Of a DNA stretch of 34,599 nt, positions 16,329-34,517 are shown piece after piece (positions within the stretch are counted from its first letter, which is position 1; each line of letters starts with the position of its first letter). The translations under genes were made by a program, and so were the position numbers. This DNA is from a virus (lineage: Duplodnaviria > Caudoviricetes), in IMG/VR virus record IMGVR_UViG_3300007988_000044, positions 1-34,599 of that record. One strand, given 5' to 3'. The notes beneath the pieces were generated by a model that saw only the letters and a list, made by a program, of their open reading frames with translations, was not told the origin of the DNA and did not search any database.

Positions 16329-16339
16329 GGGATAAGATC

Positions 16340-16777
16340 ATGGCTAAAGCATTAGTAACCAAAGGCGCGATAGCGCTATCCGGTAAACCAAGTGAAAAGG
16401 CGTTTATTGATGAATGGGCTAGGCAGGTTATCGGCAAGTGGTGTGCTATTGCGGCGGTTGACTCTGACGAAAACGAATACACCCTAATCTTAGGCTTTCG
16501 TTGCTGCAGCGTTGCGGAAATGCGCGAGGATGTTTCAGACGCCAAGAGTGTAGCAAAATGTGTGCTTGAAGAAAGGGCAAATCAAGGCCGTGATTACTTT
16601 GTACTGACATACGTTGATAACGGTGAAACGTTCGCTGAGTTTTCAGACTTTGACAAAGATAAAGTGAAGTATGAAAAAGAATGCGCTTGCATGAAAAAAA
16701 TGAAAATCCACAAAGTTAGTTATTCATCCGACTGCGTAAAACAACTGCTTATTGAGTTGAACAAAGAGCCATCTTAA
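16340..16777 (+). CDS. hypothetical protein
   Basis: 145 aa, SD AAGGGA. Confidence 0.7.
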   Translation: MAKALVTKGAIALSGKPSEKAFIDEWARQVIGKWCAIAAVDSDENEYTLILGFRCCSVAEMREDVSDAKSVAKCVLEERANQGRDYFVLTYVDNGETFAEFSDFDKDKVKYEKECACMKKMKIHKVSYSSDCVKQLLIELNKEPS

Positions 16778-16807
16778 GAGGGCTTTTATCGGCTAAACAA
16801 ACTTATA

Positions 16808-16847
16808 GGGCGGCCAATAGGGCCGCCCATCACCAGGGGACTGAGAC
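16808..16847 (+). repeat. conserved leader copy 2
   Basis: GGGCGGCC-AATAG-GGCCGCCC-ATCACCAGGGGACTGAGAC-ATG. Confidence 0.9.
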
Positions 16848-16958
16848 ATGATAAACGTATATACAATAAGAGAAGGGCGCGAAATTTGGATCGCTCGCAT
16901 CAGACCAGCAGCGGCGATAACCTGGGAAAAGCGCCATCCTTACCACATTTTCAAATAA
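16848..16958 (+). CDS. 36-aa small protein (not in ORF track)
   Basis: MINVYTIREGREIWIARIRPAAAITWEKRHPYHIFK; ATG supplied by leader copy 2; followed by a terminator-like hairpin. Confidence 0.7.
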   Translation: MINVYTIREGREIWIARIRPAAAITWEKRHPYHIFK

Positions 16959-16962
16959 ACTA

Positions 16963-16988
16963 AGGCCGCGTAAGCGGTCTTTAATTTT
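16963..16988 (+). terminator. intrinsic terminator
   Basis: AGGCCGC-GTAA-GCGGTCT followed by TTAATTTT. Confidence 0.55.
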
Positions 16989-16990
16989 AA

Positions 16991-17098
16991 AATATTTTAA
17001 TTTTTTAAAATTAAAATATTGACTCGTTTTAATATTATCGACTAAAATAAAACTCATAGGGCGCCACTTGGGCAGCCCATCACCAGGGAACTGAGACC
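16991..17098 (+). promoter_or_regulatory. conserved upstream module copy 3
   Basis: Degenerate 8-bp array, TTGACT-18-TAAAAT, GGGCGCCACTTGGGCAGCCC-ATCACCAGGGAACTGAGACC-ATG. Confidence 0.88.
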
Positions 17099-17590
17099 AT
17101 GACCGAATCACAAGCCATTATCACCCGCGCTTTCAATGCTAACGCCGCCGAGTTTCTTACAACAATCTGTAAGCGCGAGCATATCGATTTAAACTCTATC
17201 AAACACACTAATGATCGCTTTGTTATCGGGTTCGTAAATACGGGCCGCTATGTCACGATCAGAACGGTTACAGATATTAAGAACAATGAAACTTATCCCA
17301 CTTATACAAAATTAGTTTTTTCGGTCTCAACGCCTGGCCAAAATTATCATGAACATTTAAGCGCCATCGAAGCCGGGGCCGTTCGCTACACTGGCGAGGA
17401 TCTAAGGGCAAGGCCATTTAATGTTGACGGTGTTAATTATTGGGGCTTATGGTCTGAAGAACATCAAGGCTTCATCGGCTTTGATAATAAGCTCAGCGCT
17501 TACGCGCCAGCGGGCGGCTTTCACTCAGTAAAAAGTTTAACTAGCGGTGGAATCGCCAACAATGCAGCCATATTCATTTGCAAGATTTAA
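17099..17590 (+). CDS. hypothetical protein
   Basis: 163 aa starting at the leader ATG. Confidence 0.8.
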   Translation: MTESQAIITRAFNANAAEFLTTICKREHIDLNSIKHTNDRFVIGFVNTGRYVTIRTVTDIKNNETYPTYTKLVFSVSTPGQNYHEHLSAIEAGAVRYTGEDLRARPFNVDGVNYWGLWSEEHQGFIGFDNKLSAYAPAGGFHSVKSLTSGGIANNAAIFICKI

Positions 17591-17593
17591 TTA

Positions 17594-17634
17594 AGGCAGC
17601 CACAAGGGCAGCCCATCACCAGGGAACTGAGATC
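17594..17634 (+). repeat. conserved leader copy 4 (no own promoter)
   Basis: AGGCAGCCACAAGGGCAGCCC-ATCACCAGGGAACTGAGATC-ATG, 3 nt after the upstream stop. Confidence 0.9.
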
Positions 17635-17931
17635 ATGAAAGCAATCAATGCAAAAGAGTTTAAAAACGCTTGCCGAGCTTATAGCCGTTCAAACTCAAAA
17701 TTTCGTCCAACTCATACTGAAAGCCTAGTAAGGGTTTACGGTTATGAATTAGCTTATTTAGTTGAAAAGTTTGAACACTATAAAAACCAACTAGGTACAA
17801 CAAACATCCATGTTAGAACTAATTATCGAGCTTATGCCGTGGCTCAATTTAGCCATCAAGAGTGGTTATCTCAAGCTAAGCGATTAACGCTATCTTGGCG
17901 CTATTTTGACACCACAAAAAAACACAAATAA
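17635..17931 (+). CDS. hypothetical basic protein (98 aa)
   Basis: Start at the leader ATG (MKAINAKEFK). Confidence 0.8.
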   Translation: MKAINAKEFKNACRAYSRSNSKFRPTHTESLVRVYGYELAYLVEKFEHYKNQLGTTNIHVRTNYRAYAVAQFSHQEWLSQAKRLTLSWRYFDTTKKHK

Positions 17932-17940
17932 CTCTAACTA

Positions 17941-17970
17941 AGGCGGCCAGATTGGCCGCCTATTTTTTTT
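17941..17970 (+). terminator. intrinsic terminator
   Basis: AGGCGGCCA-GAT-TGGCCGCCT-ATTTTTTTT. Confidence 0.85.
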
Positions 17971-18068
17971 GATATTTTAATATTTTGATATTGTGATATT
18001 TTAAAATCTGTGTAAAATTAAGTCATAGGGTAGCCACTAGGGCCGCCCATCACCAGGGAACTGAGACC
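17971..18068 (+). promoter_or_regulatory. conserved upstream module copy 5
   Basis: GATATTTT AATATTTT GATATTGT GATATTTT, TTGTGA-16-TAAAAT, GGGTAGCCACTAGGGCCGCCC-ATCACCAGGGAACTGAGACC-ATG. Confidence 0.9.
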
Positions 18069-18230
18069 ATGAAAAAATATCTCTCTGAGTTAGCCATACT
18101 GCTAAGCATCATCATCTTTCAAGCCGTAAAGGATGGCTTTAACCCACTGCTAGGGCTCGTTTTAGTGGTTATCCCTTGCGCCATCGTTTTAATAGTAAAA
18201 TTGCTTGATATTAAAAAATTAAAATATTAA
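18069..18230 (+). CDS. 53-aa two-TM small protein (not in ORF track)
   Basis: MKKYLSELAILLSIIIFQAVKDGFNPLLGLVLVVIPCAIVLIVKLLDIKKLKY. Confidence 0.7.
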   Translation: MKKYLSELAILLSIIIFQAVKDGFNPLLGLVLVVIPCAIVLIVKLLDIKKLKY

Positions 18231-18280
18231 TATGTGTTGAGGGTGGCTACTGGGCCACCCATTACCAGGAAACTGAGATC
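18205..18280 (+). promoter_or_regulatory. conserved upstream module copy 6
   Basis: TTGATA-17-TAATAT; GGGTGGCTACTGGGCCACCC-ATTACCAGGAAACTGAGATC-ATG. Confidence 0.85.
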
Positions 18281-19174
18281 ATGATTACATCACAAGATAA
18301 ATACTCAATCGTACTAAACTTAATATACTTTTCGTTTATCTTACTGCTGATTAGTTGCGGTGCTAAATCACATTTCTTTATTCCTTTCTACCTCATCACC
18401 TGCGGCATTCCATCGGCACTAATGGCCATCATGCGCCATAAGTCAGACCTAAGCCCAACCCAACCACCAAAAGCCATCACAGCGCCAATTGCGGCGCCAA
18501 TGAATAACGTTGTACAGCTACCAAAACAACTCAATATAAAAAAGCCGGTACTGTGGGACGGGAAAAATTTACGCGGCACCTGGACAGCAACACGTAAGGC
18601 CGATGGCGTAAGAGCAACAGTGATAAACGACCAAGTGTTAACGACTGGCGGCAATCCTTGGCCAATCAGTTTACAGCAGATGAAAGGCGCAAAAGATGCA
18701 GAGATCTACTTCGGCGACTGGTACACCAGCATTAAGGCCATGCGCGGCCAAGTCGAAGTAAATCCCGAAAATGTATACCCACTCGATACCCCAGATCCCC
18801 GCCTAATGATTGGCAGCCTAACCAACCCAACAGCCGAACAAATTACCGATCTACTCAATCAAGTGGTTTTGGCAGGGTGGGAAGGGCTGGTATTACGCCA
18901 GGGCGATACATGGATCAAAGTCAAAAAATCAGAAACCCATGATCTCGAAATTATCGCAATCAACTACAACAAAAATAAAACGGTTAAATCCCTTGTCACC
19001 TGCATGGGCTCCGTTGCCAGTGGCTTAACCAACGAGCAAAAAGCCGAGATCAAGCGCAACCCTAAAGCCTATATAGGCAAAATTATTGAGGTTTCAGCCC
19101 TAAGCACTACCGCCAACGGCAAACTAAGAGAACCGCGCTTAGAGCGCTTCCGCGATGACAAGGGGGCTAAGTAA
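18281..19174 (+). CDS. minimal ATP-dependent DNA ligase with hydrophobic N-terminal extension
   Basis: Motif I KADGVR, III DAEIY, IV EGLVLR, V KVKK, OB-fold ending LREPRLERFRDDK. Confidence 0.88.
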   Translation: MITSQDKYSIVLNLIYFSFILLLISCGAKSHFFIPFYLITCGIPSALMAIMRHKSDLSPTQPPKAITAPIAAPMNNVVQLPKQLNIKKPVLWDGKNLRGTWTATRKADGVRATVINDQVLTTGGNPWPISLQQMKGAKDAEIYFGDWYTSIKAMRGQVEVNPENVYPLDTPDPRLMIGSLTNPTAEQITDLLNQVVLAGWEGLVLRQGDTWIKVKKSETHDLEIIAINYNKNKTVKSLVTCMGSVASGLTNEQKAEIKRNPKAYIGKIIEVSALSTTANGKLREPRLERFRDDKGAK

Positions 19175-19776
19175 TGGCCTCATTCACTGCGGAACACATG
19201 GACACGCTAAAAGCAATAGTGAGGCACTTACCCGGCTGGCGGTTAGAAACTCGTTTAAATGAGGTCTATGACCACACAGCCGAAATCATAGGCCCGAACA
19301 AGGCCATGCTAAACATCACCCAAGAAAAGGATAAATGGAAGGTGTACGGCTCATGGCCATCAATCCGGGGCTATCACTCGTTTAATGTCCATACGCTAGA
19401 AAGGGATCATCCCTATGGTGCAATTAGGCTCGACCCGCGCCGCAACCCTAAAAGCATTGCGGCCGATATAAAGCGCCGCATCATGCCGCAATACCTGGAC
19501 GGCCTAGCCAAAGTGCAAGCGTACATTAAGCAGCGAGCCCAAAAGCAAGAAAGCTTTAATTTGGTATGCCACACAGTAAAAACCTATTTACCTGTGAAAC
19601 AAAGCAACTACCAACGCCAGCAAGGCATAACTCAATATTATTTTACTGACTGCGGGATAAATGGAGATCTGCAACTGTACGAGAGCGGCGGCGCTGGCCT
19701 AACACTGCCGGACCTCACCATTGAGCAAATTTTTTCAATCGTAAACCTACTGAAAAAGGAACAAGCAACATGCTAA
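19174..19776 (+). CDS. hypothetical protein
   Basis: 200 aa, TAATG-coupled to the ligase. Confidence 0.8.
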   Translation: MASFTAEHMDTLKAIVRHLPGWRLETRLNEVYDHTAEIIGPNKAMLNITQEKDKWKVYGSWPSIRGYHSFNVHTLERDHPYGAIRLDPRRNPKSIAADIKRRIMPQYLDGLAKVQAYIKQRAQKQESFNLVCHTVKTYLPVKQSNYQRQQGITQYYFTDCGINGDLQLYESGGAGLTLPDLTIEQIFSIVNLLKKEQATC

Positions 19777-20207
19777 AACTAGCAATCACCCCGGCGGCCA
19801 TTGAGGCTGGGATCAACTTAAATGCAATGCTGCACATAGATGATCCTGATTTTACGCACCCCACTGTAGCGGACGTTCACGCCCTAAAAGATGTGTCCGG
19901 CTGGACCCGTGGCAAAATTGCCGCTCGCTTAGGGGCTAAAGATAAAGCCGTTGATAAATGGTTAGCCGCTAGTGCTGCGAGTCACCAGCCAATCCCCTAT
20001 ACCGCCTGGGTGACTTGGTTACTCGATAGCGGCCTGTGCTACCAAGAAAATAGCCACTGCAATGATCATGAGTTAGAAAAAATCATCACCCTGGGCAATC
20101 AGTTTTTAGACGATATTTTTCCGCAACTCGGCAAAATCGCTTTACAGGATTATGCCGCCCTCAACGAGTTAGCCATGCTGCTAACCAAACATAAAGCTAA
20201 GGAATAG
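19770..20207 (+). CDS. KorC-like HTH transcriptional regulator
   Basis: P..ADVHALKDVSGWT..KIAARLG....AVDKW......IPYTAW..WL...GL resembles the KorC pattern. Confidence 0.65.
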   Translation: MLKLAITPAAIEAGINLNAMLHIDDPDFTHPTVADVHALKDVSGWTRGKIAARLGAKDKAVDKWLAASAASHQPIPYTAWVTWLLDSGLCYQENSHCNDHELEKIITLGNQFLDDIFPQLGKIALQDYAALNELAMLLTKHKAKE

Positions 20208-20209
20208 CC

Positions 20210-20506
20210 ATGAAACAACTAATAGTCGGCCAAACATACTTGGCCATAAGTGAAGCATGTGAGTTTGAAGGGTTAGAAAACGAGATCCACAAATTTGAAG
20301 AGGTAAGAAAAACAGTTGAAATCCTACCTAAGCCCGCAACAGTGTTTGAGGATGATGGCCATCGCCAGCGCGAGATCCCACTACCAAAACACTTAGCCCA
20401 GGATAACTGGTACCGAGTGAAGAACGTCAACACCAATGTCATTCACTGGCTTTGTGTGGACTATTTGAAAATAAGCCAAGTGGCTGAATCGGAGCAAGCA
20501 CAATGA
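20210..20506 (+). CDS. hypothetical protein
   Basis: SD AAGGA; operon packing. Confidence 0.7.
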   Translation: MKQLIVGQTYLAISEACEFEGLENEIHKFEEVRKTVEILPKPATVFEDDGHRQREIPLPKHLAQDNWYRVKNVNTNVIHWLCVDYLKISQVAESEQAQ

Positions 20507-20967
20507 AAAAAATATGGGTTATTCATCTACTCGCACACTTTGGGCCATTTCTTTTTACGGGTACCGAGAAACAAGCGGAGCAAATGCGGAAAGATAAGGC
20601 CAACTATGAGCGCGAGCCAGCAAGAAAACGCCTCGCAACTGAGGATGAAATCAGGCGCAATGATCCCAGTAATTGCCTAAATCATCCGGCATACGGAAAT
20701 GAGTTCAAGATTAAATATTCCGGTGAATGCGCTTACTGCGTAAAAGTCAGTAAGGCTCAACGCCGAGTGTTAGATCAAATGCTATCAATGAGGCCACAGA
20801 CACCAACAGCTAAAGAACTAGGCGCACCGATGCGAACAATGCAAGCGCTAAAAGCTGAAGGCTGGATCGAAAATATCGAGTTATTTGGAGCCGAGGAAAC
20901 CCACGGCAAGGAACTCGATTCAATACATTGGCAACTCACTCGCATTGCAACAAACCACAGGGGCTAA
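20503..20967 (+). CDS. hypothetical protein with possible C-terminal winged helix
   Basis: SKAQRRVL...TAKELGAPMRTMQALKAEGWI. Confidence 0.65.
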   Translation: MKKIWVIHLLAHFGPFLFTGTEKQAEQMRKDKANYEREPARKRLATEDEIRRNDPSNCLNHPAYGNEFKIKYSGECAYCVKVSKAQRRVLDQMLSMRPQTPTAKELGAPMRTMQALKAEGWIENIELFGAEETHGKELDSIHWQLTRIATNHRG

Positions 20968-20969
20968 TC

Positions 20970-22435
20970 ATGGCCAAACGCAAAATAGCTGAAGTTCATT
21001 TTCAAGTTGAAGGTGAATTTATCACAGAACACATGCGGTCATTAGTGCGTGAGGGCAATTGGCGCAAAGCACTTGATGATTTAAAGCACTCTTTAATAGG
21101 TATCAATAGCGATCAATGCTTTGATATTTTATCTGGCAAGTATCAACTAAAAGGGATAAATACGGTTGATTTTGTACCAGATGATAAACACTTAGATAAA
21201 GAATGGCGCGAGGCACAATATTACACTTATTTCAGAAATGTTTTTTACCATGATGGGCAATTTTATAATCCTTACGGATGCGTAAGGTACTTAAACAAAC
21301 ATGACTTAGAATTAGCCATGTTAAAGCTAGAAATTGAAGAGCTACCTATTTCAACTGGTCTCAGTGGCGCCACGGAATCAGTCACAGATTTAAACTATGC
21401 CAGGGCAGAAACCTATAGAAAATCATCTAATGATTTTGTTTTTTACTCAAATGCTTATCACAACTTTGTTATATCGAGAAAAATAGAAAACCCAGATTAC
21501 CCCATTTGGTTAACTAAAAATCAAGCCGCTGAGTTATCCATGCAACAGTTATCATCAAATCATTCGTTAGATGATGGCGAGTTAGATGGGATTGACGTAC
21601 TGCGGGAACTGGCAGCCACTAAGCGCATAAATGACAAACTTGAGTCGGCGGGTATTGCAGCGCCAGACGCATTAGATGATACATAGTAAACCTGAAAAAA
21701 TCCAAAGATTTTAGCGAAAATATCGACACGATAAAACAAGAGATAAGCAACCGCGCGGATAAGGTCGGCGGCTGGTTAACGCTTGAAAATAGTAAATCGG
21801 GTACGAAATACACTATCCCTAAAAATGCGTTTTATCGCTGGTGCCTATCAACCAGTTCAGGCTATCGCGCGATTGAATGGCAGCCTGTTTCACCTCGCGG
21901 GGTAAAAATGGGCGGTGATGATCCCAATCACACTGATTGGTGGCTGTTTACCAGGTTAAATATAGGTGATGCACATAACACTGATAATTCAGAGGTCAAA
22001 TTTTTCTTTGATATGCGCCATAAATACACCAAGTTATTGACTGGGGCTGACTTGGCTCTTTTAACCAATCAAAAAGGCCATAAAGGCTTTGAAAGCGCCT
22101 TTGTTCGCCATGTGAACACATCATCAGAGATTAATTTAATCAATAACAATGATGTGGTGATCATCCCTCAAGCATCACCAGAATTTGAGGCTGTGGCTCA
22201 CAGATGCGCTCAAAAAAATTGCATCTTAATAACACAAACAGGCGGCAAACTTTGCCATTTAGCAACCATTGGCCGCGAATTTGGATTAGCACTTTATTTA
22301 CTACCAAATGCAGCAAGTAAATACCCAATGGGTAGCAATGTTTGCATAGACCTAGTTAAAGGCACGATGAAAACCTTAGATTTACCAATTAAAGATTTAA
22401 TGCAGTTAAAGCTTACAGGTCTGTTTTATAAATAA
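20970..22435 (+). pseudogene. frameshifted ~488-aa gene with C-terminal PEP-utilising enzyme phosphohistidine domain
   Basis: First frame stops at 21686; the frame of ORF 21908..22435 is open from 21680; C-terminal ILITQTGGKLCHLATIGREFG. Confidence 0.7.
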
Positions 22436-24453: not shown

Positions 24454-24818
24454 GCGGCTAAATCTTTCCGCTCAACCGCTTTCAAGATAGCCTGTTCTAA
24501 GCCATCAATGCCCCAATCAGGATGCCATTCAATAGACGGGATCTGAATGCTCTCACCATAGTATTTTTCAGCCCTGCCACCCTTACTGTTTTCGTGACCG
24601 GGCAGCGAAATAATCACATCGCTTGCAGCCACTAAAACTAAATCGAGTTGCATATAAACCCGATAGCTTAACCCTTTTGGCATCTTAGCCGGATTCAGCG
24701 GATTAGCACCAATAGCATCAAGCAGCCCTTCCATGCGGTTAAACGCCGGGAAATTATCCAGCGGCAAGCCAGACATAGGGCCGCTAATATAAACGTTAAG
24801 TGGCTTACGCATCATCAC
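24450..24818 (-). CDS. DUF4406-like (deoxyribosyltransferase-fold) protein
   Basis: VYISGPMSGLP..NFPAF, LNPA, YMQLDL, LPGHENSKGGRAE. Confidence 0.8.
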   Translation of the reverse strand: MMMRKPLNVYISGPMSGLPLDNFPAFNRMEGLLDAIGANPLNPAKMPKGLSYRVYMQLDLVLVAASDVIISLPGHENSKGGRAEKYYGESIQIPSIEWHPDWGIDGLEQAILKAVERKDLAA

Positions 24819-26040
24819 CGCCTTTTAGCCCTGGCGTATCTAAATTCACTGTTAATAGACGGCGAACACCTAATGTATCTGGCGTGGTCACAATGCCATT
24901 AAGCTCAAGCAGTTCTACCATTCTTGCCGCATTATCATAACTGAGTTTAAATTTTCGCTGAATGTTCGAAATACTTACCGCATTATTTGCAATGACATGC
25001 AACCTGACATTTTCATACACATCACGGTCAACGCCAGGGATAAAAAGCTGCTTATCCTCAATATGGACGATCTTATCAGCCACGGCGCTTAACCAATGAT
25101 CTGAGTCATCCCTATCAAACCCAAATGTATTAATCACTAACTGGCCGTATAACTGGCGCCACAAAGTTACATAATGCTCAAATAGTGCTTGTTCGTAGTC
25201 AGCGCGATCATCGCACTCGTTAAGAGTCTCATCATCAACTAACCAGCACAGGCTTGATAAGTCGCCATTGGCCTTAATTTTGCCGCTAACATAGCGCCAA
25301 CTAAAACCGGAGTCTGTTTTCATAAAGCCAGAAAAAGACGCCTCACTAAATTCAAAGAAACTTAACACATCACTTAAGCCTTCACTGGTTAAGTCAGCAT
25401 TTTCTAATTTTATTTTGCACTTTTCATACTGGCCACTCAACGACCCCGAAAGCTCAAGGCCGCTTCCTATAGTGCCATTTCTTACCCATGACCTTAACTG
25501 ACCACCAATCGCACTGCCAAGCTCTCTATCAGCATGAATATGTAACTCATCAGCCACTTTCTTTAATGCGGCCATGGCTAATGTTACATCGGCTTTTGAG
25601 GTACTAGAAAGCATCCCAGTGCCAAGCTTACGGTCAATCAATACATAGACAACAGAATAATGTGAAACTTCTCTGGCCAGCATATCGAGTCGAATGCTGT
25701 TACGAATCTTGGCAATTTGCTCGTCATCTAAAATGGTGCCATCTTTCTCAAGAATTTTAACGGCTTTATCAACCTGTTTTTCCCTGACTTTGGCATTAAT
25801 ATCACGAGTCTCAATAATCAGCCGTAATACCATAACATTGCAGTTATCAGCAGTGGCAATAAACTCATCAGTATCAGATGAGTGACTAGACCAACCAACT
25901 GAAAAATCTTTAGGATCACTATCTGCAATCGGCACATGGCGATCTCTTAATAGTGCCTGATTAAGATCAAGAATAGAGGGCAAATCTGAGCGTTCAAAAA
26001 CAAAAAATGAAGCGCTTTTAAACTGAGATAGATTAATCAT
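24805..26040 (-). CDS. RdgC-like protein fused to a C-terminal FtsK-gamma winged helix
   Basis: FK....F, S.GW N-terminus; SISNIQRKFKLSYDNAARMVELLELNGIV. Confidence 0.7.
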   Translation of the reverse strand: MINLSQFKSASFFVFERSDLPSILDLNQALLRDRHVPIADSDPKDFSVGWSSHSSDTDEFIATADNCNVMVLRLIIETRDINAKVREKQVDKAVKILEKDGTILDDEQIAKIRNSIRLDMLAREVSHYSVVYVLIDRKLGTGMLSSTSKADVTLAMAALKKVADELHIHADRELGSAIGGQLRSWVRNGTIGSGLELSGSLSGQYEKCKIKLENADLTSEGLSDVLSFFEFSEASFSGFMKTDSGFSWRYVSGKIKANGDLSSLCWLVDDETLNECDDRADYEQALFEHYVTLWRQLYGQLVINTFGFDRDDSDHWLSAVADKIVHIEDKQLFIPGVDRDVYENVRLHVIANNAVSISNIQRKFKLSYDNAARMVELLELNGIVTTPDTLGVRRLLTVNLDTPGLKGGDDA

Positions 26041-26569
26041 CGTAGTTATAATCCCTAAAACCGAGTGAAACACGGCTTAATGCTTCAGCATCAAGCTTAC
26101 TTACAACATCATTTAGAATGCGCCACCACGGCAACCAATCACGGCGCCAATTCGATGCAGATACACCGCTTATTTCAATGATCCGCGAAATGGTATGGGC
26201 TGGCTTTCCATGAATAATTTGATGTTTGTGGTCTTGCATCGCCAAATAACAAAGCCCTGAAAACTGCCTGACTTTGTTTCTTTTAATGAGGTGTTCACTT
26301 GAGAACTGCTGCCAAATCAACTTCACAGCATCGGCTTCAAAGTGCCAAGAGGGATTATCAGAATAGAGATAATGCAATAGGCTGGCTTGAGGATCTTGGC
26401 AAATAAGCTGATAGATATGGGTTAACTCAAACTGCCATGGCGGCAAGGGACAATGAGAACCATAAACCCCTTTAGAACCTGTATCCGAGGGCTTGCTGAT
26501 CTCTGCTACTGGCGCGAATGCTTGCTTGACAGCAAAGCGAACCTGTAAGAGCAGATCATGACTAAGCAT
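26033..26569 (-). CDS. late-gene antiterminator Q
   Basis: PLPPW, LHYLY, LAMQD, GVSASNWRRDWLPWW; directly downstream of cro. Confidence 0.8.
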   Translation of the reverse strand: MLSHDLLLQVRFAVKQAFAPVAEISKPSDTGSKGVYGSHCPLPPWQFELTHIYQLICQDPQASLLHYLYSDNPSWHFEADAVKLIWQQFSSEHLIKRNKVRQFSGLCYLAMQDHKHQIIHGKPAHTISRIIEISGVSASNWRRDWLPWWRILNDVVSKLDAEALSRVSLGFRDYNYDD

Positions 26570-26814: not shown

Positions 26815-26878
26815 TAGAATTATAATACTATTTAGACACTTTAAAAAGTATTACTTTCCTATCGGATGGGGCTATAGT
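26815..26878. promoter_or_regulatory. switch region: two operators and a leaderless repressor promoter
   Basis: TAGAATTATAATACTA 26815-30 and AAGTATTACTTTCCTA 26846-61; -10 TATAGT 26873-78 ends 6 nt before ATG, no SD. Confidence 0.6.
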
Positions 26879-26884
26879 TATTTC

Positions 26885-27373
26885 ATGAAAATTAATTCTA
26901 GAAAAATCCTTGCCAGGAACCTTGACGCACTAATGCGAGAACACCAACTTAACCAAGTTGAACTTTCGAAAAGGAGTCAAAAGTACGGCACAGGTATTAA
27001 TCAAAAGACGATTAGCAACTATCTGGATCAAAGTGATGATTCGGTGGCTAACCCCTGTCTTAATAAAATAGAAATTTTGGCGCAATGTTTTAAAATTGAG
27101 CCATCGAGATTGCTTAGCCCCAATTTAGAAGAGCAAAAAACACAAATTAGTGTGAATGAAGAGCTGCTTGTTAAATCAATGAGTGATGCAGTGGCGTTAC
27201 TATTTGAGGCGGGTATTTTTTCGGCTGAAAACGCCCAATATATCTTGGGCTTTTCAGATGATATTGCGAAAGCAACGGCGATTATTTACAACGGTAAAGC
27301 GCAAGATCCGAATAAAATTGTATTTGATTTTATGGCTTATCTTAACGCGCGAAAGGCTTCAAATGCTCTTTAG
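26885..27373 (+). CDS. XRE-family immunity repressor lacking an S24 peptidase domain
   Basis: LARNL..LM....LNQVELS...INQKTISNY...NP.L.KIEILA..F; start at ATG 26885. Confidence 0.8.
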   Translation: MKINSRKILARNLDALMREHQLNQVELSKRSQKYGTGINQKTISNYLDQSDDSVANPCLNKIEILAQCFKIEPSRLLSPNLEEQKTQISVNEELLVKSMSDAVALLFEAGIFSAENAQYILGFSDDIAKATAIIYNGKAQDPNKIVFDFMAYLNARKASNAL

Positions 27374-27674
27374 TTTTATCCATTCTCTTAGCATCAACTC
27401 TCTGCCAACTATCTAATCTCTTCTGCCACAATATAAGCTTTACAATCCTATCGCCGGGCGGTAAAGCTTGTATTTCTGCATATTCACGCAATAAAGAACA
27501 TGCCTGATAATCAAGCGATGCCCGAGTGTTCAGCATCACAATGTTATCTGTATCATTATCTATCTGATCAATCTGTAAAACTAAGTTATTATCATGCACG
27601 AAGTTGCGGCAGGCGGCTATGGCCAAACAAACAGATGTAACCAATACAGCTAATGAAATATATAATATGAGCAT
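27342..27674 (-). CDS. membrane-anchored protein (110 aa)
   Basis: N-terminal TM; last gene of the peptide operon. Confidence 0.6.
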   Translation of the reverse strand: MLILYISLAVLVTSVCLAIAACRNFVHDNNLVLQIDQIDNDTDNIVMLNTRASLDYQACSLLREYAEIQALPPGDRIVKLILWQKRLDSWQRVDAKRMDKTKEHLKPFAR

Positions 27675-28143
27675 TTAAAAGTCCCTTTAATCGACCAACT
27701 GATTTTAGTAAAAAAACACCAACTATTGGGCTGACCATAACCCAACAATACAACAGGTAACTTAATAAAACTAATGGCTTATAATATGCCTGTAACACAT
27801 TATCGCCATGATAACGATCAACATACCGCACCACATTGGTGAACACGAACAGTAAACTGGCGATTGACGCTGTAACTAGATGTAAATTCACGCGATAACG
27901 TAATATTTTAAACCCACCAAATAAACAGCCATACATCGTTACCTCGATGCCTGACCAAATGATGTACCACCATGGGCCAGTCTGACGAACCACCTCAATA
28001 ATGAGATAGTTAAACACCGCAAAAGCCGCAATGATGAGCGATAAGAATCTATGCTCACCAATGCGCCAATTACAGGCCATGGCTATCATGCAAACGCACA
28101 TAAACCAATTTGCAATGATAAAACCCTTGACCTCAAGCAGCAT
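27592..28143 (-). CDS. multi-pass membrane protein (~5 TM)
   Basis: Repeated hydrophobic segments, RYVDRY motif; TAATG-coupled to the peptide ORF. Confidence 0.75.
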   Translation of the reverse strand: MLLEVKGFIIANWFMCVCMIAMACNWRIGEHRFLSLIIAAFAVFNYLIIEVVRQTGPWWYIIWSGIEVTMYGCLFGGFKILRYRVNLHLVTASIASLLFVFTNVVRYVDRYHGDNVLQAYYKPLVLLSYLLYCWVMVSPIVGVFLLKSVGRLKGLLNAHIIYFISCIGYICLFGHSRLPQLRA

Positions 28144-28250
28144 TATTTTTCCTCTTCAGGAATATTTTGCTGCTGTTGCTCTTCTGGCTCATCACCGCCG
28201 CCGCCAGGCATATAACAACCACGTTTAACATCATTTAAAAAATCACGCAT
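28143..28250 (-). CDS. 35-aa peptide with PGGGGDEPE motif (not in ORF track)
   Basis: MRDFLNDVKRGCYMPGGGGDEPEEQQQQNIPEEEK; SD AGGGG; stop overlaps the next ATG. Confidence 0.75.
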   Translation of the reverse strand: MRDFLNDVKRGCYMPGGGGDEPEEQQQQNIPEEEK

Positions 28251-28266
28251 AAAAACCCCTTTAATA

Positions 28267-28524
28267 CTATGCAATTACACTTATTTTAGTGGCAGAACCA
28301 CCGACTTTAACGATACCGCTAGGCGAATAAATCTCACCAACTTCAGCACTGTTAATAGGTTGACTAGCAGTATCGCTATTCTGACTAGAACGGAGTAATA
28401 ATTCTGGCTCATCACCGCCGCCACCAGGCTTAAGCATGGGCAAAACGGGTGTTTGATTCGTGCCAGCTATATTAGAGTTTTGGCTCAAAACTGAATAACT
28501 ATTTGATAAATTGACGTTAATCAT
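28267..28524 (-). CDS. 85-aa low-complexity protein with PGGGGDEPE motif
   Basis: MINVNLSNS...LKPGGGGDEPELLL...KISVIA; start placed at ATG 28524. Confidence 0.7.
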   Translation of the reverse strand: MINVNLSNSYSVLSQNSNIAGTNQTPVLPMLKPGGGGDEPELLLRSSQNSDTASQPINSAEVGEIYSPSGIVKVGGSATKISVIA

Positions 28525-28606
28525 CTTTTTGCAACAATCCTTATCCACAAATACAACAAATGACTGAGGTGCTGAATATACAGAACCACGTTTTTTTATC
28601 AACTGC

Positions 28607-28659
28607 TAGTAATATATTTCTATTTCAGTAATCATATATTGAATAGGATCTAATTTCTA
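28607..28659. promoter_or_regulatory. two 16-bp operators
   Basis: TAGTAATATATTTCTA 28607-22 and TAGGATCTAATTTCTA 28644-59. Confidence 0.55.
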
Positions 28660-28751: not shown

Positions 28752-28890
28752 CAAAAACGCCCGCAAAATGCGGGCGTTATAAACCGTAAAAACTTTGGTC
28801 TAGCAGACGATTAATGTTACCAGCACTAACCGCCTAAAGATTTAAAGCTGTGGTAGGGACAAAAACCAAACACAACATAAACCCAAATAC
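28752..28890 (-). ncRNA. putative antisense RNA to the repA leader
   Basis: Minus-strand TTGCAG-17-TAACAT (28925-28897) and terminator AACGCCCGCA-TTT-TGCGGGCGTTTTT. Confidence 0.5.
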
Positions 28891-28923: not shown

Positions 28924-28963
28924 AATATTAAACAATAAAAATATTTTAATATTGTGATATTAA
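28924..28963 (+). repeat. 8-bp RATATTNN array upstream of repA
   Basis: 28940-28961 matches 17979-18000 at 21 of 22 positions. Confidence 0.7.
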
Positions 28964-28973
28964 GGGATTTACA

Positions 28974-31900
28974 ATGGACAACCGTTTGAGCATAAAACAG
29001 TTTTTTGATAAAGAATATTCATCAAGCGCAGAAGAAATCCTCAATACTCATCTATCTGATCTCAGTTTCATTGCTAATGAGCTGGATATCGATATTTATG
29101 ACGCCATCAATGTCATCAGTGTTCCAACCTCAATCGGTACTGAAGATAAATACAGTGATAAAGAAGGCGCCAGATTTGTTAAAAACAAAGATATGCGAGG
29201 CCGCGCTGCAATTTGGGTAAGACTCAAATCGACTAAAGGCGGTATTCAATACCCATTCATAACCCTGAAAGCCAAGGGGCAAGTGCGAACCTGGTCGGGA
29301 TATGAACCATTCAAAGAAGCCTATACTCGACAAAAAGCCATAGCTGGTAATAGCCAGGCACAACAGCAAATAGATGCCGCGCAACTGGCAAAGAAAAAGG
29401 CGGCAGCCGAACGTGAAGTCGAGCGCCAAAAAAAATTAGCCGCGGCTAAAATTGAAGCCGAAACCAAAAAAGCAAAATCACTTCAGCTTTATAATGAATA
29501 TATGGCCGCCTATGCGCGGGCATCAACTTCAGATGGCACTGAACCTTACTTAGTGACTAAATCACTCACTGGGCTGGTAAAGCGTCACAGTAATATAAAA
29601 ACCCTCTTTGAATACTATGACCGCACACTAGACGAGTGGCGGCCAATACTGACCGATGAAATACCGCATAATGCGAAAAAAATTACCGTTGTACCTCTAG
29701 CCCGGCTTGGTTCACTCCCAGCCGGGCTTCAGCGTTTATCAGCAGAGGGTAAATATCAAACTCAGGCAGTTAACGAGGGTGATTACTCAGAAGCATTTGC
29801 ACTAATTGGCCCACCCCTTAACAACGGTAAGCCAATCGATATTTGTGAAGGGTTCGCCACCACTCTATCAACTCAAGCGGTGACAGGTAATTCAACACTG
29901 TTTGGCGTTTCTGCTGACAACGTTAAAAAATTGGTACCGATTATCCTGGCAGCATATCCAGAATCGAAAGTTAGACTGATCTCCGATAATGACCATGCTA
30001 AAGCGAAAAAAGGATCAGGTAATAAGGGTATGTTAATCGGCATGGAAGTATTGCAACTCCATGGCCATAAACCTAACTTAAGTGTATTTATCCCCAAAGT
30101 TAAAGACTTGCCAAAGCCCGGAACAGATACCAACGATATTCATGTTTTTCATCCGTTAGGGTTAACAGAACTAGGGCGCCAGTTAAGAGCCAAAGAGCAA
30201 AATTATAAAGTATCTAGTTTTGATGACAGGTTTCAACTAGCGCTGGCTCGATTTACCTGCTTGCCACATGCACAGCAAATTAAAGAGCACAATCTCAAGC
30301 CTGTTATTTTATCTGGACTAGCGTTAACCCCGTCAAAATATGCAGTTGATGATATTATCAACAGCATCATCGGAGCTGCTCGCAAAGCGGGCCACAATAT
30401 CAATATCAAGCTGGTTAAAGCGATGGTATTCAAAAACCTAAAAGGTGCGGTTTGGTCAGCACAAAAAAGCCGGGCTTTCAGTCGTAAAAAACTACTTGGC
30501 CCAAACATCATTTATCGCCACTTCAATACATCAAAGATCACCCCTGAAATTTTTGATTACATCAATAATATTCAAAATGGCCAGATCATTATCAGGGCAC
30601 CAATGGGATCAGGTAAAACCCAAGGGCTGATAAAACCACTCATGGATCAACCTGGCCGCGCAATTTATCTGGCACATCGAGTCAGCCTGATTACAGGGGC
30701 CACTTCAGCGCTAAATAAGCGCGTTGATAAGTTTGGCAACACTACCTGGCTAGATGAATCATTATCGGTAAAACATTACCGCAATGATCTGACGGCTGAG
30801 TCGGCGCCATTTATACAAAAACTGGCCTGTTGTATAAACAGTATCGTGAACCCGATCCCCGATGCGGTTTGTCAAAACCTAGACCAATTGTTTTTAGACG
30901 AAGCGGCCCAAATGCTGAACTCTATTACGATTGATGGGGCGATGTTTGCACCACAATTAGTATTTAAAAAGTTAGTAAACCTTATGGTTAATACCAGAAG
31001 AGTTATTTTATGTGATGCCGATGCCAATGATAATTTGATTAATCTATGTGAACTGGCGGCAAAGCAGCGTGAAGATCAGACAATCCACATCATAGAGTTA
31101 AAGACTGACTGCCAGAATATCGAGTTAAACCATACTGACCATGCCACGCTGGTTTCAAACATTGAACAAGCGGCAATAAACAATCAGCGTATTGTGATTG
31201 CAACCGATAATTGTGCTGAAGCCGATGCAATGCATCAAATGCTGATTGAGGCCACGAACGGCGGCAATGGGATGATCATTACTGGCCAAAACTCAGGTGA
31301 TACTAAACAACAGCAGTTTTTAGAAAACCTGAATAACTATGTCGACAAAAATGGTAATACTGTCGAACATAAAAGCCAGGGCAAACCTTGGCTTGAGCAC
31401 GAAGGTTATCAATGGCTAATTTATAGCCCAGCGATCACATCCGGCGTTTCAATCGAAGTCGATTATTTTGATTCTCACTTTGGCCGTTTTTCTGGTATTT
31501 CAATTTCGCCGAGTGAAGCCATTCAAATGCTACGCCGGGACAGAACAGCCAAAAAATTCACCGTGGGCCTAAAACCTTCTCAAAACAATGCAGAAACCGA
31601 CCCTAATCGTATTATCAGCGCATTTTATAAAGCTGAATCAGAAAAAAATAGCATTCAATATGAAATCAATGATGATTTTCAGACCATTGTAAAAACAGCA
31701 GATCCCGACTTTGACCGAATGAGAGCATTAGCCCTGGCAAATATCGCCAGTGCAAAGGCAAACTTTGCTAATAATATCCTATGGGCCATGTATTCAGATG
31801 GCTATAACGTGCGCGCAGCAGAGGCAAACGATTTAGATAAAGAGCATGGTAAGTCTTTGATTGAATCGAGCCGTGAACTGGCGAGAGAATCATTAATCAA

Positions 31901-32870
31901 CTTGGTCCTAGGTGTCAGTTCTCCATCCGATGAACGCCTATCAAGCCTGAACAGCAAAAAAATGATTTATGGCTTAACGGCAAGTGAACAAGCAGAAATA
32001 GTACGCCATGAAATTGAAATGAAAATGCAGGTACCTGTTACCGATGAAAGCATTCTGCTGCATAAAAATGGTTTTCTATCACAGCTAAAACGGGCTGAAC
32101 TGTTATTCATTGAACAAGATAAATTAGCTGTTTTTGACAATGAGCAAAAAATTAGCGGCAGAGCTGCCAGCCGCTTAGACCACGCCAGCAAACGCGCTAA
32201 TGCACTTAAGTCGATGTTTGATTTAATGAGCTTAGATGTTGAAACTGGAACAGGCCAAGCGAGCAGCGATCAGATTAAAGCAGTTTTTGATTATTTCACT
32301 TCAGATGATATGCGCGATATACACAACTCAGTGTTACGCATAGGCTCGCCTGTACGCGCAAATTCAATTAATCATGTAGATCCTACTAAGTGGGTTCAAG
32401 GCGCATTTGAACGCTGTGGATTGAAGCTAGAACGTTCTGAGCGTAAGAGAATTGATGGCCGTAGCATGTGGCACTTTAGAATTAACCCGGCCAGCTTTGC
32501 ATTACTGAAAGAAACCATGAAAAGACGAAAAATAGCAGAAGTCTTTGACTGGATAATTTCCCCGGTAAATACCGCACAAACTGGCACAACCAAGGCAAAA
32601 AAGGATCAAGCACAGCCCTGTAATACTCTTTTAACCCTGCGAAATGTTATGCACAAACAAGAAAGCGTTATAAAACGTACACTTAGAGGCGTTTCTGACT
32701 TCCTCAATATACCTGCTGAATACATTAAAACGCAGATTAACAGGCAAGATATTCGCGATTTCAATGCTGGTCGGACAACATTAGATGAGTTAGCCACCAT
32801 GATCCGTGGTTTATGGGATTTTGACGGCCTAACGTATCGAAAAAAATCGCTAGAACAGGTTATTTTTTAA
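28974..32870 (+). CDS. repA: N15-type replication protein RepA (TOPRIM primase + helicase/origin-binding)
   Basis: ICEGFAT, DND, GTDTND; APMGSGKT, AHRVSL, LDEAAQ, YSPAITSGVSI, QMLRRDR; 1298 aa. Confidence 0.92.
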   Translation: MDNRLSIKQFFDKEYSSSAEEILNTHLSDLSFIANELDIDIYDAINVISVPTSIGTEDKYSDKEGARFVKNKDMRGRAAIWVRLKSTKGGIQYPFITLKAKGQVRTWSGYEPFKEAYTRQKAIAGNSQAQQQIDAAQLAKKKAAAEREVERQKKLAAAKIEAETKKAKSLQLYNEYMAAYARASTSDGTEPYLVTKSLTGLVKRHSNIKTLFEYYDRTLDEWRPILTDEIPHNAKKITVVPLARLGSLPAGLQRLSAEGKYQTQAVNEGDYSEAFALIGPPLNNGKPIDICEGFATTLSTQAVTGNSTLFGVSADNVKKLVPIILAAYPESKVRLISDNDHAKAKKGSGNKGMLIGMEVLQLHGHKPNLSVFIPKVKDLPKPGTDTNDIHVFHPLGLTELGRQLRAKEQNYKVSSFDDRFQLALARFTCLPHAQQIKEHNLKPVILSGLALTPSKYAVDDIINSIIGAARKAGHNINIKLVKAMVFKNLKGAVWSAQKSRAFSRKKLLGPNIIYRHFNTSKITPEIFDYINNIQNGQIIIRAPMGSGKTQGLIKPLMDQPGRAIYLAHRVSLITGATSALNKRVDKFGNTTWLDESLSVKHYRNDLTAESAPFIQKLACCINSIVNPIPDAVCQNLDQLFLDEAAQMLNSITIDGAMFAPQLVFKKLVNLMVNTRRVILCDADANDNLINLCELAAKQREDQTIHIIELKTDCQNIELNHTDHATLVSNIEQAAINNQRIVIATDNCAEADAMHQMLIEATNGGNGMIITGQNSGDTKQQQFLENLNNYVDKNGNTVEHKSQGKPWLEHEGYQWLIYSPAITSGVSIEVDYFDSHFGRFSGISISPSEAIQMLRRDRTAKKFTVGLKPSQNNAETDPNRIISAFYKAESEKNSIQYEINDDFQTIVKTADPDFDRMRALALANIASAKANFANNILWAMYSDGYNVRAAEANDLDKEHGKSLIESSRELARESLINLVLGVSSPSDERLSSLNSKKMIYGLTASEQAEIVRHEIEMKMQVPVTDESILLHKNGFLSQLKRAELLFIEQDKLAVFDNEQKISGRAASRLDHASKRANALKSMFDLMSLDVETGTGQASSDQIKAVFDYFTSDDMRDIHNSVLRIGSPVRANSINHVDPTKWVQGAFERCGLKLERSERKRIDGRSMWHFRINPASFALLKETMKRRKIAEVFDWIISPVNTAQTGTTKAKKDQAQPCNTLLTLRNVMHKQESVIKRTLRGVSDFLNIPAEYIKTQINRQDIRDFNAGRTTLDELATMIRGLWDFDGLTYRKKSLEQVIF

Positions 32871-32951: not shown

Positions 32952-34517
32952 TTATTGGCTAAATGACTCATACCATTCATTGAGTTTTGCACCTTCGGCC
33001 CAACCGTTCGCCGTTGGTGCGCCCAATGCCTTACCATCAATCTTGATATTTTTGCGGGCATAGCTTGCGAATTTAGTAGCTATTTTCGTTGGTGTACCGT
33101 CTTTATCAAGTTTTCCTTTTTCGGCATCATCTTTTAATGAGTTCTCTAACTCGATCAATGTCACTCGATTTTCAAGTAAGTTAATAAACTCATCATGAAT
33201 GGTATGCCAGGCTTTTGCCCTGCTATTCCATCCGCTGCGATCAAAGCTTTTTAGATACTCAAGTAAAGCAGCATCAAACGGGGATAAATCACTGCCATCA
33301 TCTGTTGTTTCGGCTTCAGGCCGATGCACAAAAATAGTATCAACGGCATCACTGGCTTCAAAACCATCATAATGCTCTTGAGTGCTAAGATCCCCGCCTG
33401 TATGCCCTAATGCTTGGGCTCGATATGCTGCCTTAGTTTGATTGCTTTTTGCTGCCTCATGGTAACTAAGCTCGGCCCAAATTGCCCTGGTACTCTTAAA
33501 AGTCATATCCGGGCCAAGCACTATTTTTGCATGATGATTGAGCGTACTCGCGTATTTTGATGAGACAGCGCCATTATGCGGAATATCAAAAATATCGCCC
33601 TCAATGATAGTTTTAGTTTGTTCAACACCACTGCGGTCAATGAATGAAACCGTTTCCGCTTTAAGTCTAAGCCTTAGTTTTTTAAAGGCTTTTAATACTA
33701 AGTCTGCATCGACTAGCGAATGGATAGGGTAAGGCTTTAACTCTTCAAATAACTTGCGGTTTTTTGTCTTTAGTTGACCTGAAAACAATAATGTTGATTG
33801 GTCTATTTTTTTGAAATTTCCGGTGCGAAAAATCTCTGTTAATCGGCGCCCGGTAGCAAGTGCCAGGGCAAACCCAAGCTCACCTATCGTTGGTGTCTTA
33901 TTATTAAACGTGTCGCTAATAATGCGTTTTATCCAATGTGGGTTAATCTCCACTTTATTGTTATGTGTCTTTTCAAGCCTTTTCGATTGTTGCTCTTCTT
34001 TCTTCTCTGAAACGATACTTGGTACGATCAAGTTATAGTACAAGGCAAAGTGAATCTTTAGTGAATTAAGGGCCATGCCAAACTCACTTTTTTTATCAAC
34101 CTGGCTTTTAATTTTTATCAAGTTTTCATGCAAATCAATACTAGGTAAATCTGGGTTTAGAAGTTCGGCTAAATCACTCCTAATGTCTGAAAAATCATAG
34201 ATTATCTTATCAACTGATTTTTTCAACAGGTGATGTTTAATCCCTTTATGAATAATCGTTTGTCGGTAAATACTGAGGGTATTTGCAAGCGTAGCATAAG
34301 AGCATTTTGGTACCCCTTCAAGCTCACCCGTTCTAGGGTTCACATACCATCCAAGGCGCCGCAATTCATCACGAACCACCCTGGCGCACATCGTTGTTAT
34401 ATAACTCGATTGCTTATCTTCTGGCAGGGTTAAAGCATGTTCATGGGTATTGCTAACAAAGTCGGCAATATACTTCTTTCTAGCTACTGGTTTAGTACCT
34501 TTACTCATTTTCGTCAC
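32952..34517 (-). CDS. telN: protelomerase (telomere resolvase); ATG 34508 may be the true start
   Basis: LALATGRRLTEI, FSGQLKTK, FKSTRAIWA, LGH, TQEHY catalytic pattern. Confidence 0.93.
   Translation of the reverse strand: MTKMSKGTKPVARKKYIADFVSNTHEHALTLPEDKQSSYITTMCARVVRDELRRLGWYVNPRTGELEGVPKCSYATLANTLSIYRQTIIHKGIKHHLLKKSVDKIIYDFSDIRSDLAELLNPDLPSIDLHENLIKIKSQVDKKSEFGMALNSLKIHFALYYNLIVPSIVSEKKEEQQSKRLEKTHNNKVEINPHWIKRIISDTFNNKTPTIGELGFALALATGRRLTEIFRTGNFKKIDQSTLLFSGQLKTKNRKLFEELKPYPIHSLVDADLVLKAFKKLRLRLKAETVSFIDRSGVEQTKTIIEGDIFDIPHNGAVSSKYASTLNHHAKIVLGPDMTFKSTRAIWAELSYHEAAKSNQTKAAYRAQALGHTGGDLSTQEHYDGFEASDAVDTIFVHRPEAETTDDGSDLSPFDAALLEYLKSFDRSGWNSRAKAWHTIHDEFINLLENRVTLIELENSLKDDAEKGKLDKDGTPTKIATKFASYARKNIKIDGKALGAPTANGWAEGAKLNEWYESFSQ

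What the first reader, a model, noticed from the sequence alone, without database searches (positions are those of the whole stretch)
27342..28659. PGGGGDEPE peptide pair plus membrane protein inserted between repressor and repA: candidate peptide-signalling system
Seen: a minus-strand four-gene operon with an 85-aa protein containing KPGGGGDEPE, an unannotated 35-aa peptide containing MPGGGGDEPE, a ~5-TM protein translationally coupled to the peptide (TAATG), and a single-TM 110-aa protein overlapping the 3' end of the repressor gene. The two small ORFs share only this 9-residue motif, with a synonymous codon difference, which suggests selection on the peptide. Two operators of the switch family sit upstream. 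Established: in N15 the repressor gene is adjacent to repA; peptide-guided lysis-lysogeny (arbitrium) is known from Bacillus phages; agrD/agrB is a precursor plus membrane maturase pair. Inference: precursor(s) plus a processing/export or sensing membrane protein feed into a repressor with no autocleavage domain. The second motif copy could be a decoy or alternative substrate.
Basis: partly seen in the sequence, partly recalled or inferred. Interest (0 to 1): 0.86.

Follow-up and report, generated by a model that had tools for sequence, protein, structure and literature searches.

The report
Phage peptide-code membrane signalling cassette
A bacterial virus that lives as a plasmid carries, beside its master on/off switch, two tiny genes sharing a short peptide "password" that changes in both copies together, plus two membrane proteins that likely read it, which would be a new kind of peptide signal for viruses of Gram-negative bacteria.

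Summary
The cassette is real and conserved. In an N15-like linear plasmid prophage, two small ORFs share PGGGGDEPE (9 aa; shuffles reach at most 7). They precede a ~5-TM protein and a 1-TM protein, between repA and a repressor lacking a cleavage domain. Gene order and a 16-bp operator shared with the cI/cro switch recur in a viral contig and a Shewanella linear plasmid. In 5 of 5 two-copy cassettes the copies match: three D/D, two G/G, including a haplotype 95-98% identical to the window in which both copies switched. The motif therefore behaves like a specificity code read by one partner. It is not arbitrium, agr or a TF-smORF module. The TM protein's predicted fold weakly resembles uncharacterised phage proteins that also follow a coupled Gly-motif micropeptide, often repeated, and sit beside a holin-like gene (35 of 35 loci of one family); sequence homology to them was not significant. 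Best reading: peptide ligand, membrane receptor, membrane-anchored output acting on phage development. Export, binding, translation and any effect on the repressor are untested. Only one strong upstream operator was found, not two.

The parts
28756..28778 (-). Terminator-like hairpin insulating the cassette from the repA side
   Evidence: a similar hairpin is visible in L019, L020, L021
28644..28659 (.). Weak second operator-like site (6 mismatches), lying in the spacer of a promoter-like site that points to repA
   Evidence: doubtful
28607..28622 (.). Strong 16-bp palindromic operator, same family as the cI/cro switch operator, 4 nt upstream of the cassette -35 box
   Evidence: same place in L019, L020; L021 has the perfect palindrome; 0 of 30 shuffles per sequence gave a site with <=2 mismatches
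28575..28602 (-). Promoter-like site TTGATA-16-TATATT for the cassette
   Evidence: 10 of 12 matches; similar boxes in L019 and L020, less clear in L021; consensus match only
28267..28524 (-). ORF1, 85 aa, hydrophilic, no TM segment; motif copy 1 at 28402-28428; absent in the Shewanella plasmid
28143..28250 (-). ORF2, 35 aa: 13-aa leader, conserved C-x-MPGGGG[D/G]EP (copy 2 at 28182-28208), acidic tail; coupled to the TM gene
27592..28143 (-). TM183: five core membrane helices plus a C-terminal helix; no family match; predicted receptor or partner of the motif
27342..27674 (-). TM110: one N-terminal TM, predicted cytoplasmic domain of about 85 aa; overlaps TM183 by 83 nt and cI by 32 nt; predicted output
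26885..27373 (+). cI-like XRE repressor, 162 aa, no autocleavage domain detected
26815..26830 (.). Switch operator containing a TATAAT box on the cro strand
   Evidence: conserved in L020, L021
26562..26801 (-). cro-like gene, followed by Q-like antiterminator 26033-26569
28974..32870 (+). repA primase-helicase, divergent from the cassette
32952..34517 (-). telN protelomerase
   Evidence: PF16684, E 3e-27

Best explanation
The cassette is a conserved four-gene unit whose two small proteins carry the same PGGGG[D/G]EP code, which likely acts as a ligand for the five-helix membrane protein, and that protein likely controls the membrane-anchored 110-aa protein, predicted to tune the phage's lysis-or-dormancy decision. 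SHOWN: the genes, their conservation and order, the shared operator, and the matched D/G switch in both copies. INFERRED step 1: one partner reads both copies, and it is TM183, because the peptide is translationally coupled to it in 4 of 4 loci and look-alike TM genes in unrelated phages also have a coupled Gly-motif peptide. INFERRED step 2: the operator puts the cassette under the repressor, so it is made on infection or induction; LexA-like boxes over the -10 region in two relatives fit this. INFERRED step 3: the peptides have no signal sequence, so they would leave by lysis or membrane lesions and reach the outer face of TM183, where its conserved polar residues (Y60, E67, R106, D109, R110) tentatively lie, reporting nearby kin infections. 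INFERRED step 4 (weakest): TM183 holds or releases TM110, whose cytoplasmic domain would act on the non-cleavable repressor, in the slot where look-alike modules have a holin-like gene.
For: Synteny in window, L020 (TM 47% identical) and Shewanella plasmid NZ_AP026071.1. Matched copies in 5 of 5 two-copy cassettes: window, L019 and an X15 contig D/D; L020 and the X17/X19 haplotype G/G. Copies within L019 and L020 differ at 3 and 4 synonymous codons, and 4 in the X17/X19 haplotype (read by hand), so gene conversion does not explain the match. The flanks of the motif diverge while it stays. Operator conserved beside the cassette promoter and in the switch. All 5 proteins found with the TM110 profile are 92-110 aa and two lie on the L020 and Shewanella contigs. 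AF2 model pLDDT 84.6; 17 of 50 listed viral fold matches have Foldseek probability >=0.6 and are 139-178 aa. The two named ones I located (PEi21 ORF50, Barba gp127) each follow a coupled Gly/Ser-motif micropeptide and neighbour a holin-like gene. 35 of 35 PEi21-family loci have a coupled small ORF; 33 of 35 fit a Gly-motif filter against 3 of 372 ORFs in a control set.
Against: No expression, translation, export or binding data. The fold matches all have E > 0.2 (0 with E <= 0.001), and profile comparison with the PEi21 family is not significant (E 0.16; 12 of 60 block shuffles scored as high), so kinship with the lysis-region modules is unproven. Those peptides are basic, these acidic. The control filter was written after seeing the peptides, and most of the 35 loci are close relatives. 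Neither ORF has a hydrophobic export segment, which fits a cytoplasmic inhibitor more simply. Topology is not clean: the supposedly outer loop 106-124 also holds three K/R. Nothing ties TM110 to cI except position. The LexA-like box is absent in the window and L019 (3 arm mismatches). The X17/X19 haplotype comes from one study and is linked through overlapping contigs, not one molecule. The family is tiny (8 plausible 50% clusters).
Confidence: 0.36

Rival explanations
1. Intracellular inhibitor-and-toxin (antiholin-like) pair: TM183, alone or with TM110, damages or depolarises the membrane, and the peptides bind it from the cytoplasm as an allele-specific antidote. It times lysis or stabilises the plasmid prophage, with no cell-to-cell signal.
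For: No export signal in either ORF. Translational coupling fixes stoichiometry. Matched D/G switching is equally expected of an antidote. Look-alike modules sit beside holin-like genes. A small phage membrane protein that tunes holin is known (ORF52, PMC11657625, results part 1 read).
Against: No PADLOC match for the cassette proteins. The window has a separate lysis cluster about 15 kb away. Two or three repeated short motifs per precursor in relatives look more like ligand copies than a folded antitoxin. Conserved polar residues tentatively face outward.
Confidence: 0.28
2. Superinfection exclusion or kin recognition in the lysogen: the repressor bound just upstream of the -35 box activates the cassette, and the membrane proteins block or abort incoming related phages, with the peptide as a self password.
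For: The operator ends 4 nt upstream of the -35 box in 3 of 4 loci, a position compatible with activation. Immunity-region membrane genes are often exclusion genes (own knowledge).
Against: LexA-like boxes over the -10 region in L021 and L020 suggest silence in the unstressed lysogen. Look-alike modules lie in lysis regions of other phages.
Confidence: 0.14
3. AgrD/AgrB-like maturation: TM183 cuts, cyclises at the conserved Cys, and exports ORF2, and ORF1 is a Cys-free competitor.
For: ORF2 has a short leader, a Cys two residues before MPG in 4 of 4 loci, and an acidic or charged tail. TM183 has a Cys near position 18 and a His at 31 in most members.
Against: No AgrB (PF04647) match in 11 members; no PDB fold match. 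No PxxP motif, which PMC3901668 gives as characteristic of AgrD. No sensor kinase in the cassette. C18, H31 and H88 are not invariant. Most look-alike peptides lack a conserved Cys.
Confidence: 0.12
4. The peptides are direct antirepressors (smORF/Qtip-like) that bind cI, and the membrane proteins are an unrelated passenger or the sensor.
For: The repressor lacks a cleavage domain, and such repressors need extra factors (PMC10432266, part 1 read). LexA-like box in L021.
Against: The peptide is coupled to the TM gene, not to a transcription factor. The D/G switch occurs between phages whose cI is nearly identical (few differences in X17). Look-alike modules have no neighbouring repressor.
Confidence: 0.08

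Closest known systems
Arbitrium (AimP-AimR-AimX) of SPbeta-type Bacillus phages
   Same: Phage-encoded short peptide with allele-like variants, next to lysis-lysogeny genes; proposed density signal.
   Different: Arbitrium uses a Sec-exported precursor and a soluble TPR receptor (recalled). Here there is no signal peptide, the partner is a 5-TM protein, and the one named host is Gram-negative.
agr AgrD/AgrB(/AgrC), including the phage-borne set of phiCDHM1 (PMC3901668, passages seen)
   Same: Small precursor beside a membrane protein; leader, Cys, acidic tail layout in ORF2.
   Different: No AgrB domain, no PxxP motif, no kinase; second copy without Cys.
TF-smORF and VqmA-Qtip modules of linear plasmid phages (PMC10432266, part 1 of 10 read)
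   Same: Same phage class; small proteins near repA; repressor control by an accessory module.
   Different: Those lie between repA and telN (an 81-nt gap here), use a divergent transcription factor and were studied with autocleaving cI. This cassette lies between cI and repA and consists of peptides plus membrane proteins.
T4 lysis inhibition (T holin, RI/RIII antiholins; recalled) and BSPM4 ORF52 (PMC11657625)
   Same: Membrane-level sensing of neighbouring infection that tunes the phage cycle.
   Different: No sequence match; no peptide code in those systems; this cassette is detached from the lysis genes.
Unnamed micropeptide + 4-5 TM + holin-like triads (Edwardsiella PEi21 ORF49-51, Jedunavirus, Aeromonas 4_L372X 021-019, Vibrio 367.14, Rheinheimera Barba gp125-127)
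   Same: Coupled hydrophilic Gly-motif peptide, often 2-3 motif copies; similar predicted fold; G-x3-Y-x6-[DE] in the third helix aligns with PEi21-family proteins; a small membrane gene alongside.
   Different: Basic motif (GG[R/N]GK[Q/T]R) instead of acidic; holin-like third gene; usually at the lysis cassette; profile homology not significant. These are themselves uncharacterised.

Membership tests
N15-like linear plasmid prophage | Convergent repA and telN within 10 kb | tested here: met
   the Shewanella relative is a linear plasmid
N15-like linear plasmid prophage | cI-like gene is the gene upstream of repA (271 of 274 loci in PMC10432266) | tested here: not met
   four genes, 1.6 kb, lie between cI and repA
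Arbitrium / RRNPP | Soluble TPR-type receptor next to the peptide gene (feature recalled) | tested here: not met
   neighbour is a membrane protein with no Pfam, PHROG or NCBIfam family
Arbitrium / RRNPP | Precursor with a hydrophobic Sec signal peptide (feature recalled) | tested here: not met
   no 19-aa window above 1.5 hydropathy in ORF1 or ORF2
Arbitrium / RRNPP | Extracellular peptide shifts lysis-lysogeny | not testable with these tools
   needs experiment
agr AgrD/AgrB | AgrB domain PF04647 | tested here: not met
   0 of 11 members match at E <= 1
agr AgrD/AgrB | AgrD P-x-x-P motif (PMC3901668) | tested here: not met
   absent from ORF2 in window, L019, L020, L021
agr AgrD/AgrB | Leader, conserved Cys, acidic tail forming a thiolactone (feature recalled) | tested here: inconclusive
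   layout present in 4 of 4 ORF2s; cyclisation untestable; ORF1 lacks the Cys
[quoted passage not shown]
   repA ends 32870, telN ends 32952; no TF in the cassette
TF-smORF / Qtip modules | Small protein inactivates cI | not testable with these tools
Known anti-phage defence or exclusion systems | PADLOC model match | tested here: not met
   0 families for P0001-P0004 at E <= 0.1
Micropeptide + TM + holin-like triads (informal group seen here) | Coupled hydrophilic Gly-motif ORF upstream of a 4-5 TM gene | tested here: met
Micropeptide + TM + holin-like triads (informal group seen here) | Same fold | tested here: inconclusive
   Foldseek probability 0.82-0.98 but E 0.8-4.4 for the two located matches
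Micropeptide + TM + holin-like triads (informal group seen here) | Significant profile homology | tested here: not met
Micropeptide + TM + holin-like triads (informal group seen here) | Adjacent holin-like gene | tested here: inconclusive
   TM110 has one TM but no holin match; PEi21 ORF51 has weak holin matches

The most novel reading that the evidence does not exclude
This is the first recognised member of a widespread, unannotated peptide-receptor system of phages of Gram-negative bacteria: Gly-motif micropeptides released at lysis are read by a 5-TM receptor. Most phages wire it to a holin to time lysis by local infection density, and this plasmid prophage has rewired it to a membrane-tethered regulator of its non-cleavable repressor, with D and G dialects.
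Probability: 0.22. Interest if true: 0.93.

Novelty: categorically new. Interest (0 to 1): 0.74.

Why it matters
Peptide-guided phage decisions are established for Bacillus phages; in Gram-negative hosts the known cases eavesdrop on host autoinducers (PMC10432266). A phage-made peptide read by a membrane protein would extend phage-to-phage signalling to Gammaproteobacteria by a different chemistry. It would also offer a route by which non-cleavable repressors are controlled, a class that study set aside. Even under the antidote rival, the work exposes an overlooked module (micropeptide + multi-TM + holin-like gene) whose TM gene matches 93 GenBank phage records for one family alone, including Klebsiella, Vibrio, Aeromonas and Edwardsiella phages, with the peptide often unannotated. 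The one-residue D/G dialect and a cultured Shewanella host make it directly testable.

Tried and rejected
Motif-only scans gave chance hits: 16 viral loci for PGGGGDEP, none with the cassette layout; 32 GTDB loci for MPGGGG[G/D/E]EP, all apparently chance; 2 viral loci, one being L020's contig and one unrelated. TM183 had no match in GenBank phages or in 250 sampled genomes of one class, with no positive control in that set. repA and cI scans of viral contigs added no new cassette; L024 and L025 are unrelated. PDB searches showed only generic helical bundles. The single-sequence cI model was unusable (pLDDT 48). The atlas search for TM110 did not complete. No RNA holder was on record; runs labelled RNA are guesses held as contigs, and the one raw-read run laid 0 reads, so expression is untested. 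Three phage records fetched on a guess showed no such module: Aeromonas vB_AsaM-56, Shewanella 1/44 and 18 kb of Shewanella 1/41. phiCbK and the unnamed fold matches were not located. P0016 (1492 aa, E 7e-4) was dropped from the family as a likely hydrophobic artefact; L017 and L018 are 100% identical in TM183 and were not counted. Rejected: recent DNA duplication as the cause of the shared motif (synonymous differences in homologues); the second upstream operator as a firm feature. Literature: 9 searches found no description of the cassette or motifs; the library lacks most subscription papers, and no supplements were read.

Full report
Context. The window is a linear plasmid prophage: protelomerase (PF16684, E 3e-27), a 1298-aa repA, an XRE-like repressor, cro, Q, and separate lysis and head genes. 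In 271 of 274 such loci the gene upstream of repA is cI (PMC10432266, part 1 of 10 read). Here 1.6 kb with four minus-strand genes lies between them.

Observation. The ORFs, the motif pair and the TAATG coupling are as described. A shared 9-mer is far above 200 shuffles (maximum 7). None of the four proteins matches Pfam or PADLOC, and PHROGs gives only one marginal unknown-function hit for TM110. TM183 and 10 relatives also lack NCBIfam matches.

Homologues. A profile search of 1.84 billion representatives gave 9 hits, 8 plausible. Three distinct loci with flanking DNA were obtained. L019 (TM 85% identical over 120 aa) keeps both ORFs and both motifs while ORF1 drifts to 46% identity with its frame intact. 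L020 (47%) keeps the whole order repA / ORF1 / ORF2 / TM / 1-TM / cI / cro / Q. The linear plasmid of Shewanella sp. NFH-SH190041 keeps it with one peptide. dN/dS against L019 is 0.11 (ORF2), 0.08 (TM) and 0.45 (ORF1), so ORF2 is under strong purifying selection and ORF1 mainly preserves its motif.

The D/G code. Window, L019 and a contig from run X15 read D in both copies; L020 reads G in both. Runs X17 and X19 (one study) hold a haplotype with 12 differences over 233 nt of ORF1 and its flank (14 over 706 nt), in which 28412 gives D38G in ORF1 and 28192 gives D20G in ORF2. The two are chained by shared variants at 28244, 28258, 28265 and 28278 on overlapping contigs. Its ORF2 tail diverges right after the motif. 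Because this ORF1 is much closer to the window's than L019's is, ORF1's residue changed in step with ORF2's at least once. The copies differ at 3-4 synonymous codons in L019, L020 and this haplotype, which excludes simple conversion. Five of five two-copy cassettes match. This is the strongest evidence that one partner reads both copies with single-residue specificity. It does not say whether the reading is inside or outside the cell.

Regulation. A 16-bp palindrome lies 4 nt upstream of the cassette's -35 box in window, L019 and L020 and slightly further in L021, and again in the cI/cro switch. 0 of 30 shuffles per sequence produced a site within 2 mismatches. A third copy is at 15241. L021 and L020 have a LexA-like box (1 arm mismatch; consensus recalled) over the -10 region; window and L019 do not. 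Control by the repressor is likely; repression is my inference, and activation is possible.

Structure and look-alikes. AF2 gives six helices at pLDDT 84.6. PDB has only generic bundles. In the viral library 17 of 50 listed rows have probability >=0.6, all 139-178 aa, none with E <= 0.001. The two named ones I located follow the same grammar. PEi21 ORF49 (three DAGGRGKTR repeats) precedes ORF50 (143 aa) and a holin-like ORF51, beside the endolysin. Barba gp126 (24 aa) precedes gp127 (139 aa) next to spanin-like genes. Shewanella phage 3/49 has an unannotated peptide overlapping the start of a 171-aa membrane gene in its lysis region, matched to a fold row by length only. All 35 PEi21-family viral loci have a coupled small ORF (22 distinct). 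33 fit a Gly-motif filter and 29 hold repeats by a loose count, against 3 of 372 ORFs in 8 phage sequences, those 3 being these modules (filter written afterwards; loci mostly close kin). Aeromonas 4_L372X and Vibrio 367.14 repeat the triad, and one family member matches 93 phage records. Against kinship: profile comparison is not significant, and three records fetched on a guess lacked the module. A G-x3-Y-x6-[DE] pattern aligns between the families, which is a lead only.

Mechanism. I commit to ligand, receptor, output: the motif binds TM183, and TM183 governs TM110, whose predicted cytoplasmic domain takes the place of the holin-like gene and would act on the developmental switch. The pairing of motif and TM183 I put at about 0.65, extracellular action at about half of that, and an effect on cI lower. 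The chief rival is an intracellular antidote for a membrane-active protein; exclusion, AgrB-like maturation and direct antirepression follow.

Comparison and novelty. It fails the defining tests for arbitrium, agr and TF-smORF modules, though it may work like the first. Nine literature searches found neither the cassette nor the motifs. Seen: PMC10432266 part 1; PMC11657625 abstract, outline and results part 1 of 3; PMC12802170 and PMC3901668 passages only; others as listings; no supplements. Features of AimR/AimP, AgrD chemistry, T4 lysis inhibition and the LexA box are recalled.

Verdict. A real, conserved, undescribed peptide-membrane module wired to a prophage switch operator, with good comparative evidence for a specificity code and no direct evidence yet for signalling. 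Interest 0.74.

Noticed in passing
window 15241-15256: A third copy of the switch operator (1 mismatch) lies 19 nt upstream of the 146-aa gene 14782-15222 (-), at the head of a leftward gene run that leads towards the lysis and head genes.
   Followed up: partly
window 26851-26887: The cI promoter looks leaderless: a TATAGT-like box lies about 6 nt before the ATG, and an AGTA[A/T]TACTTTCCT-like element over the -35 region is conserved in L020 and L021.
   Followed up: partly
window 28924-28961: An AT-rich palindromic element just before repA is nearly identical in window, L020 and L021; possible RepA site or promoter.
   Followed up: no
L021 6074-6089; L020 about 4652-4667: LexA-like box over the cassette's -10 region in two relatives, absent in the window and L019.
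   Followed up: partly
L062 27644-28484; L064 28478-29269; L065-L068; L071-L105; L108; L109; L106 about 30820-31321: Widespread micropeptide + 4-5 TM + holin-like module in phage lysis regions; the peptide is often unannotated and often carries 2-3 repeats of GG[R/N]GK[Q/T]R or DAGGAxVK. It deserves its own study.
   Followed up: partly
window 24805-26073: RdgC-like protein fused to a C-terminal FtsK-gamma domain, also in L020 and L021 by sequence.
   Followed up: no
window 15837-22435: A plus-strand island with a DnaJ-domain gene, an ATP-dependent DNA ligase-like gene, and two ORFs (20928-21686, 21908-22435) matching the two ends of one PHROG (11532), possibly a split gene.
   Followed up: no
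run X17, loose end at window 28049: The loose letters read like the P0007 allele of TM183, hinting that the G-type peptide travels with a different TM allele; not linked on one contig.
   Followed up: no
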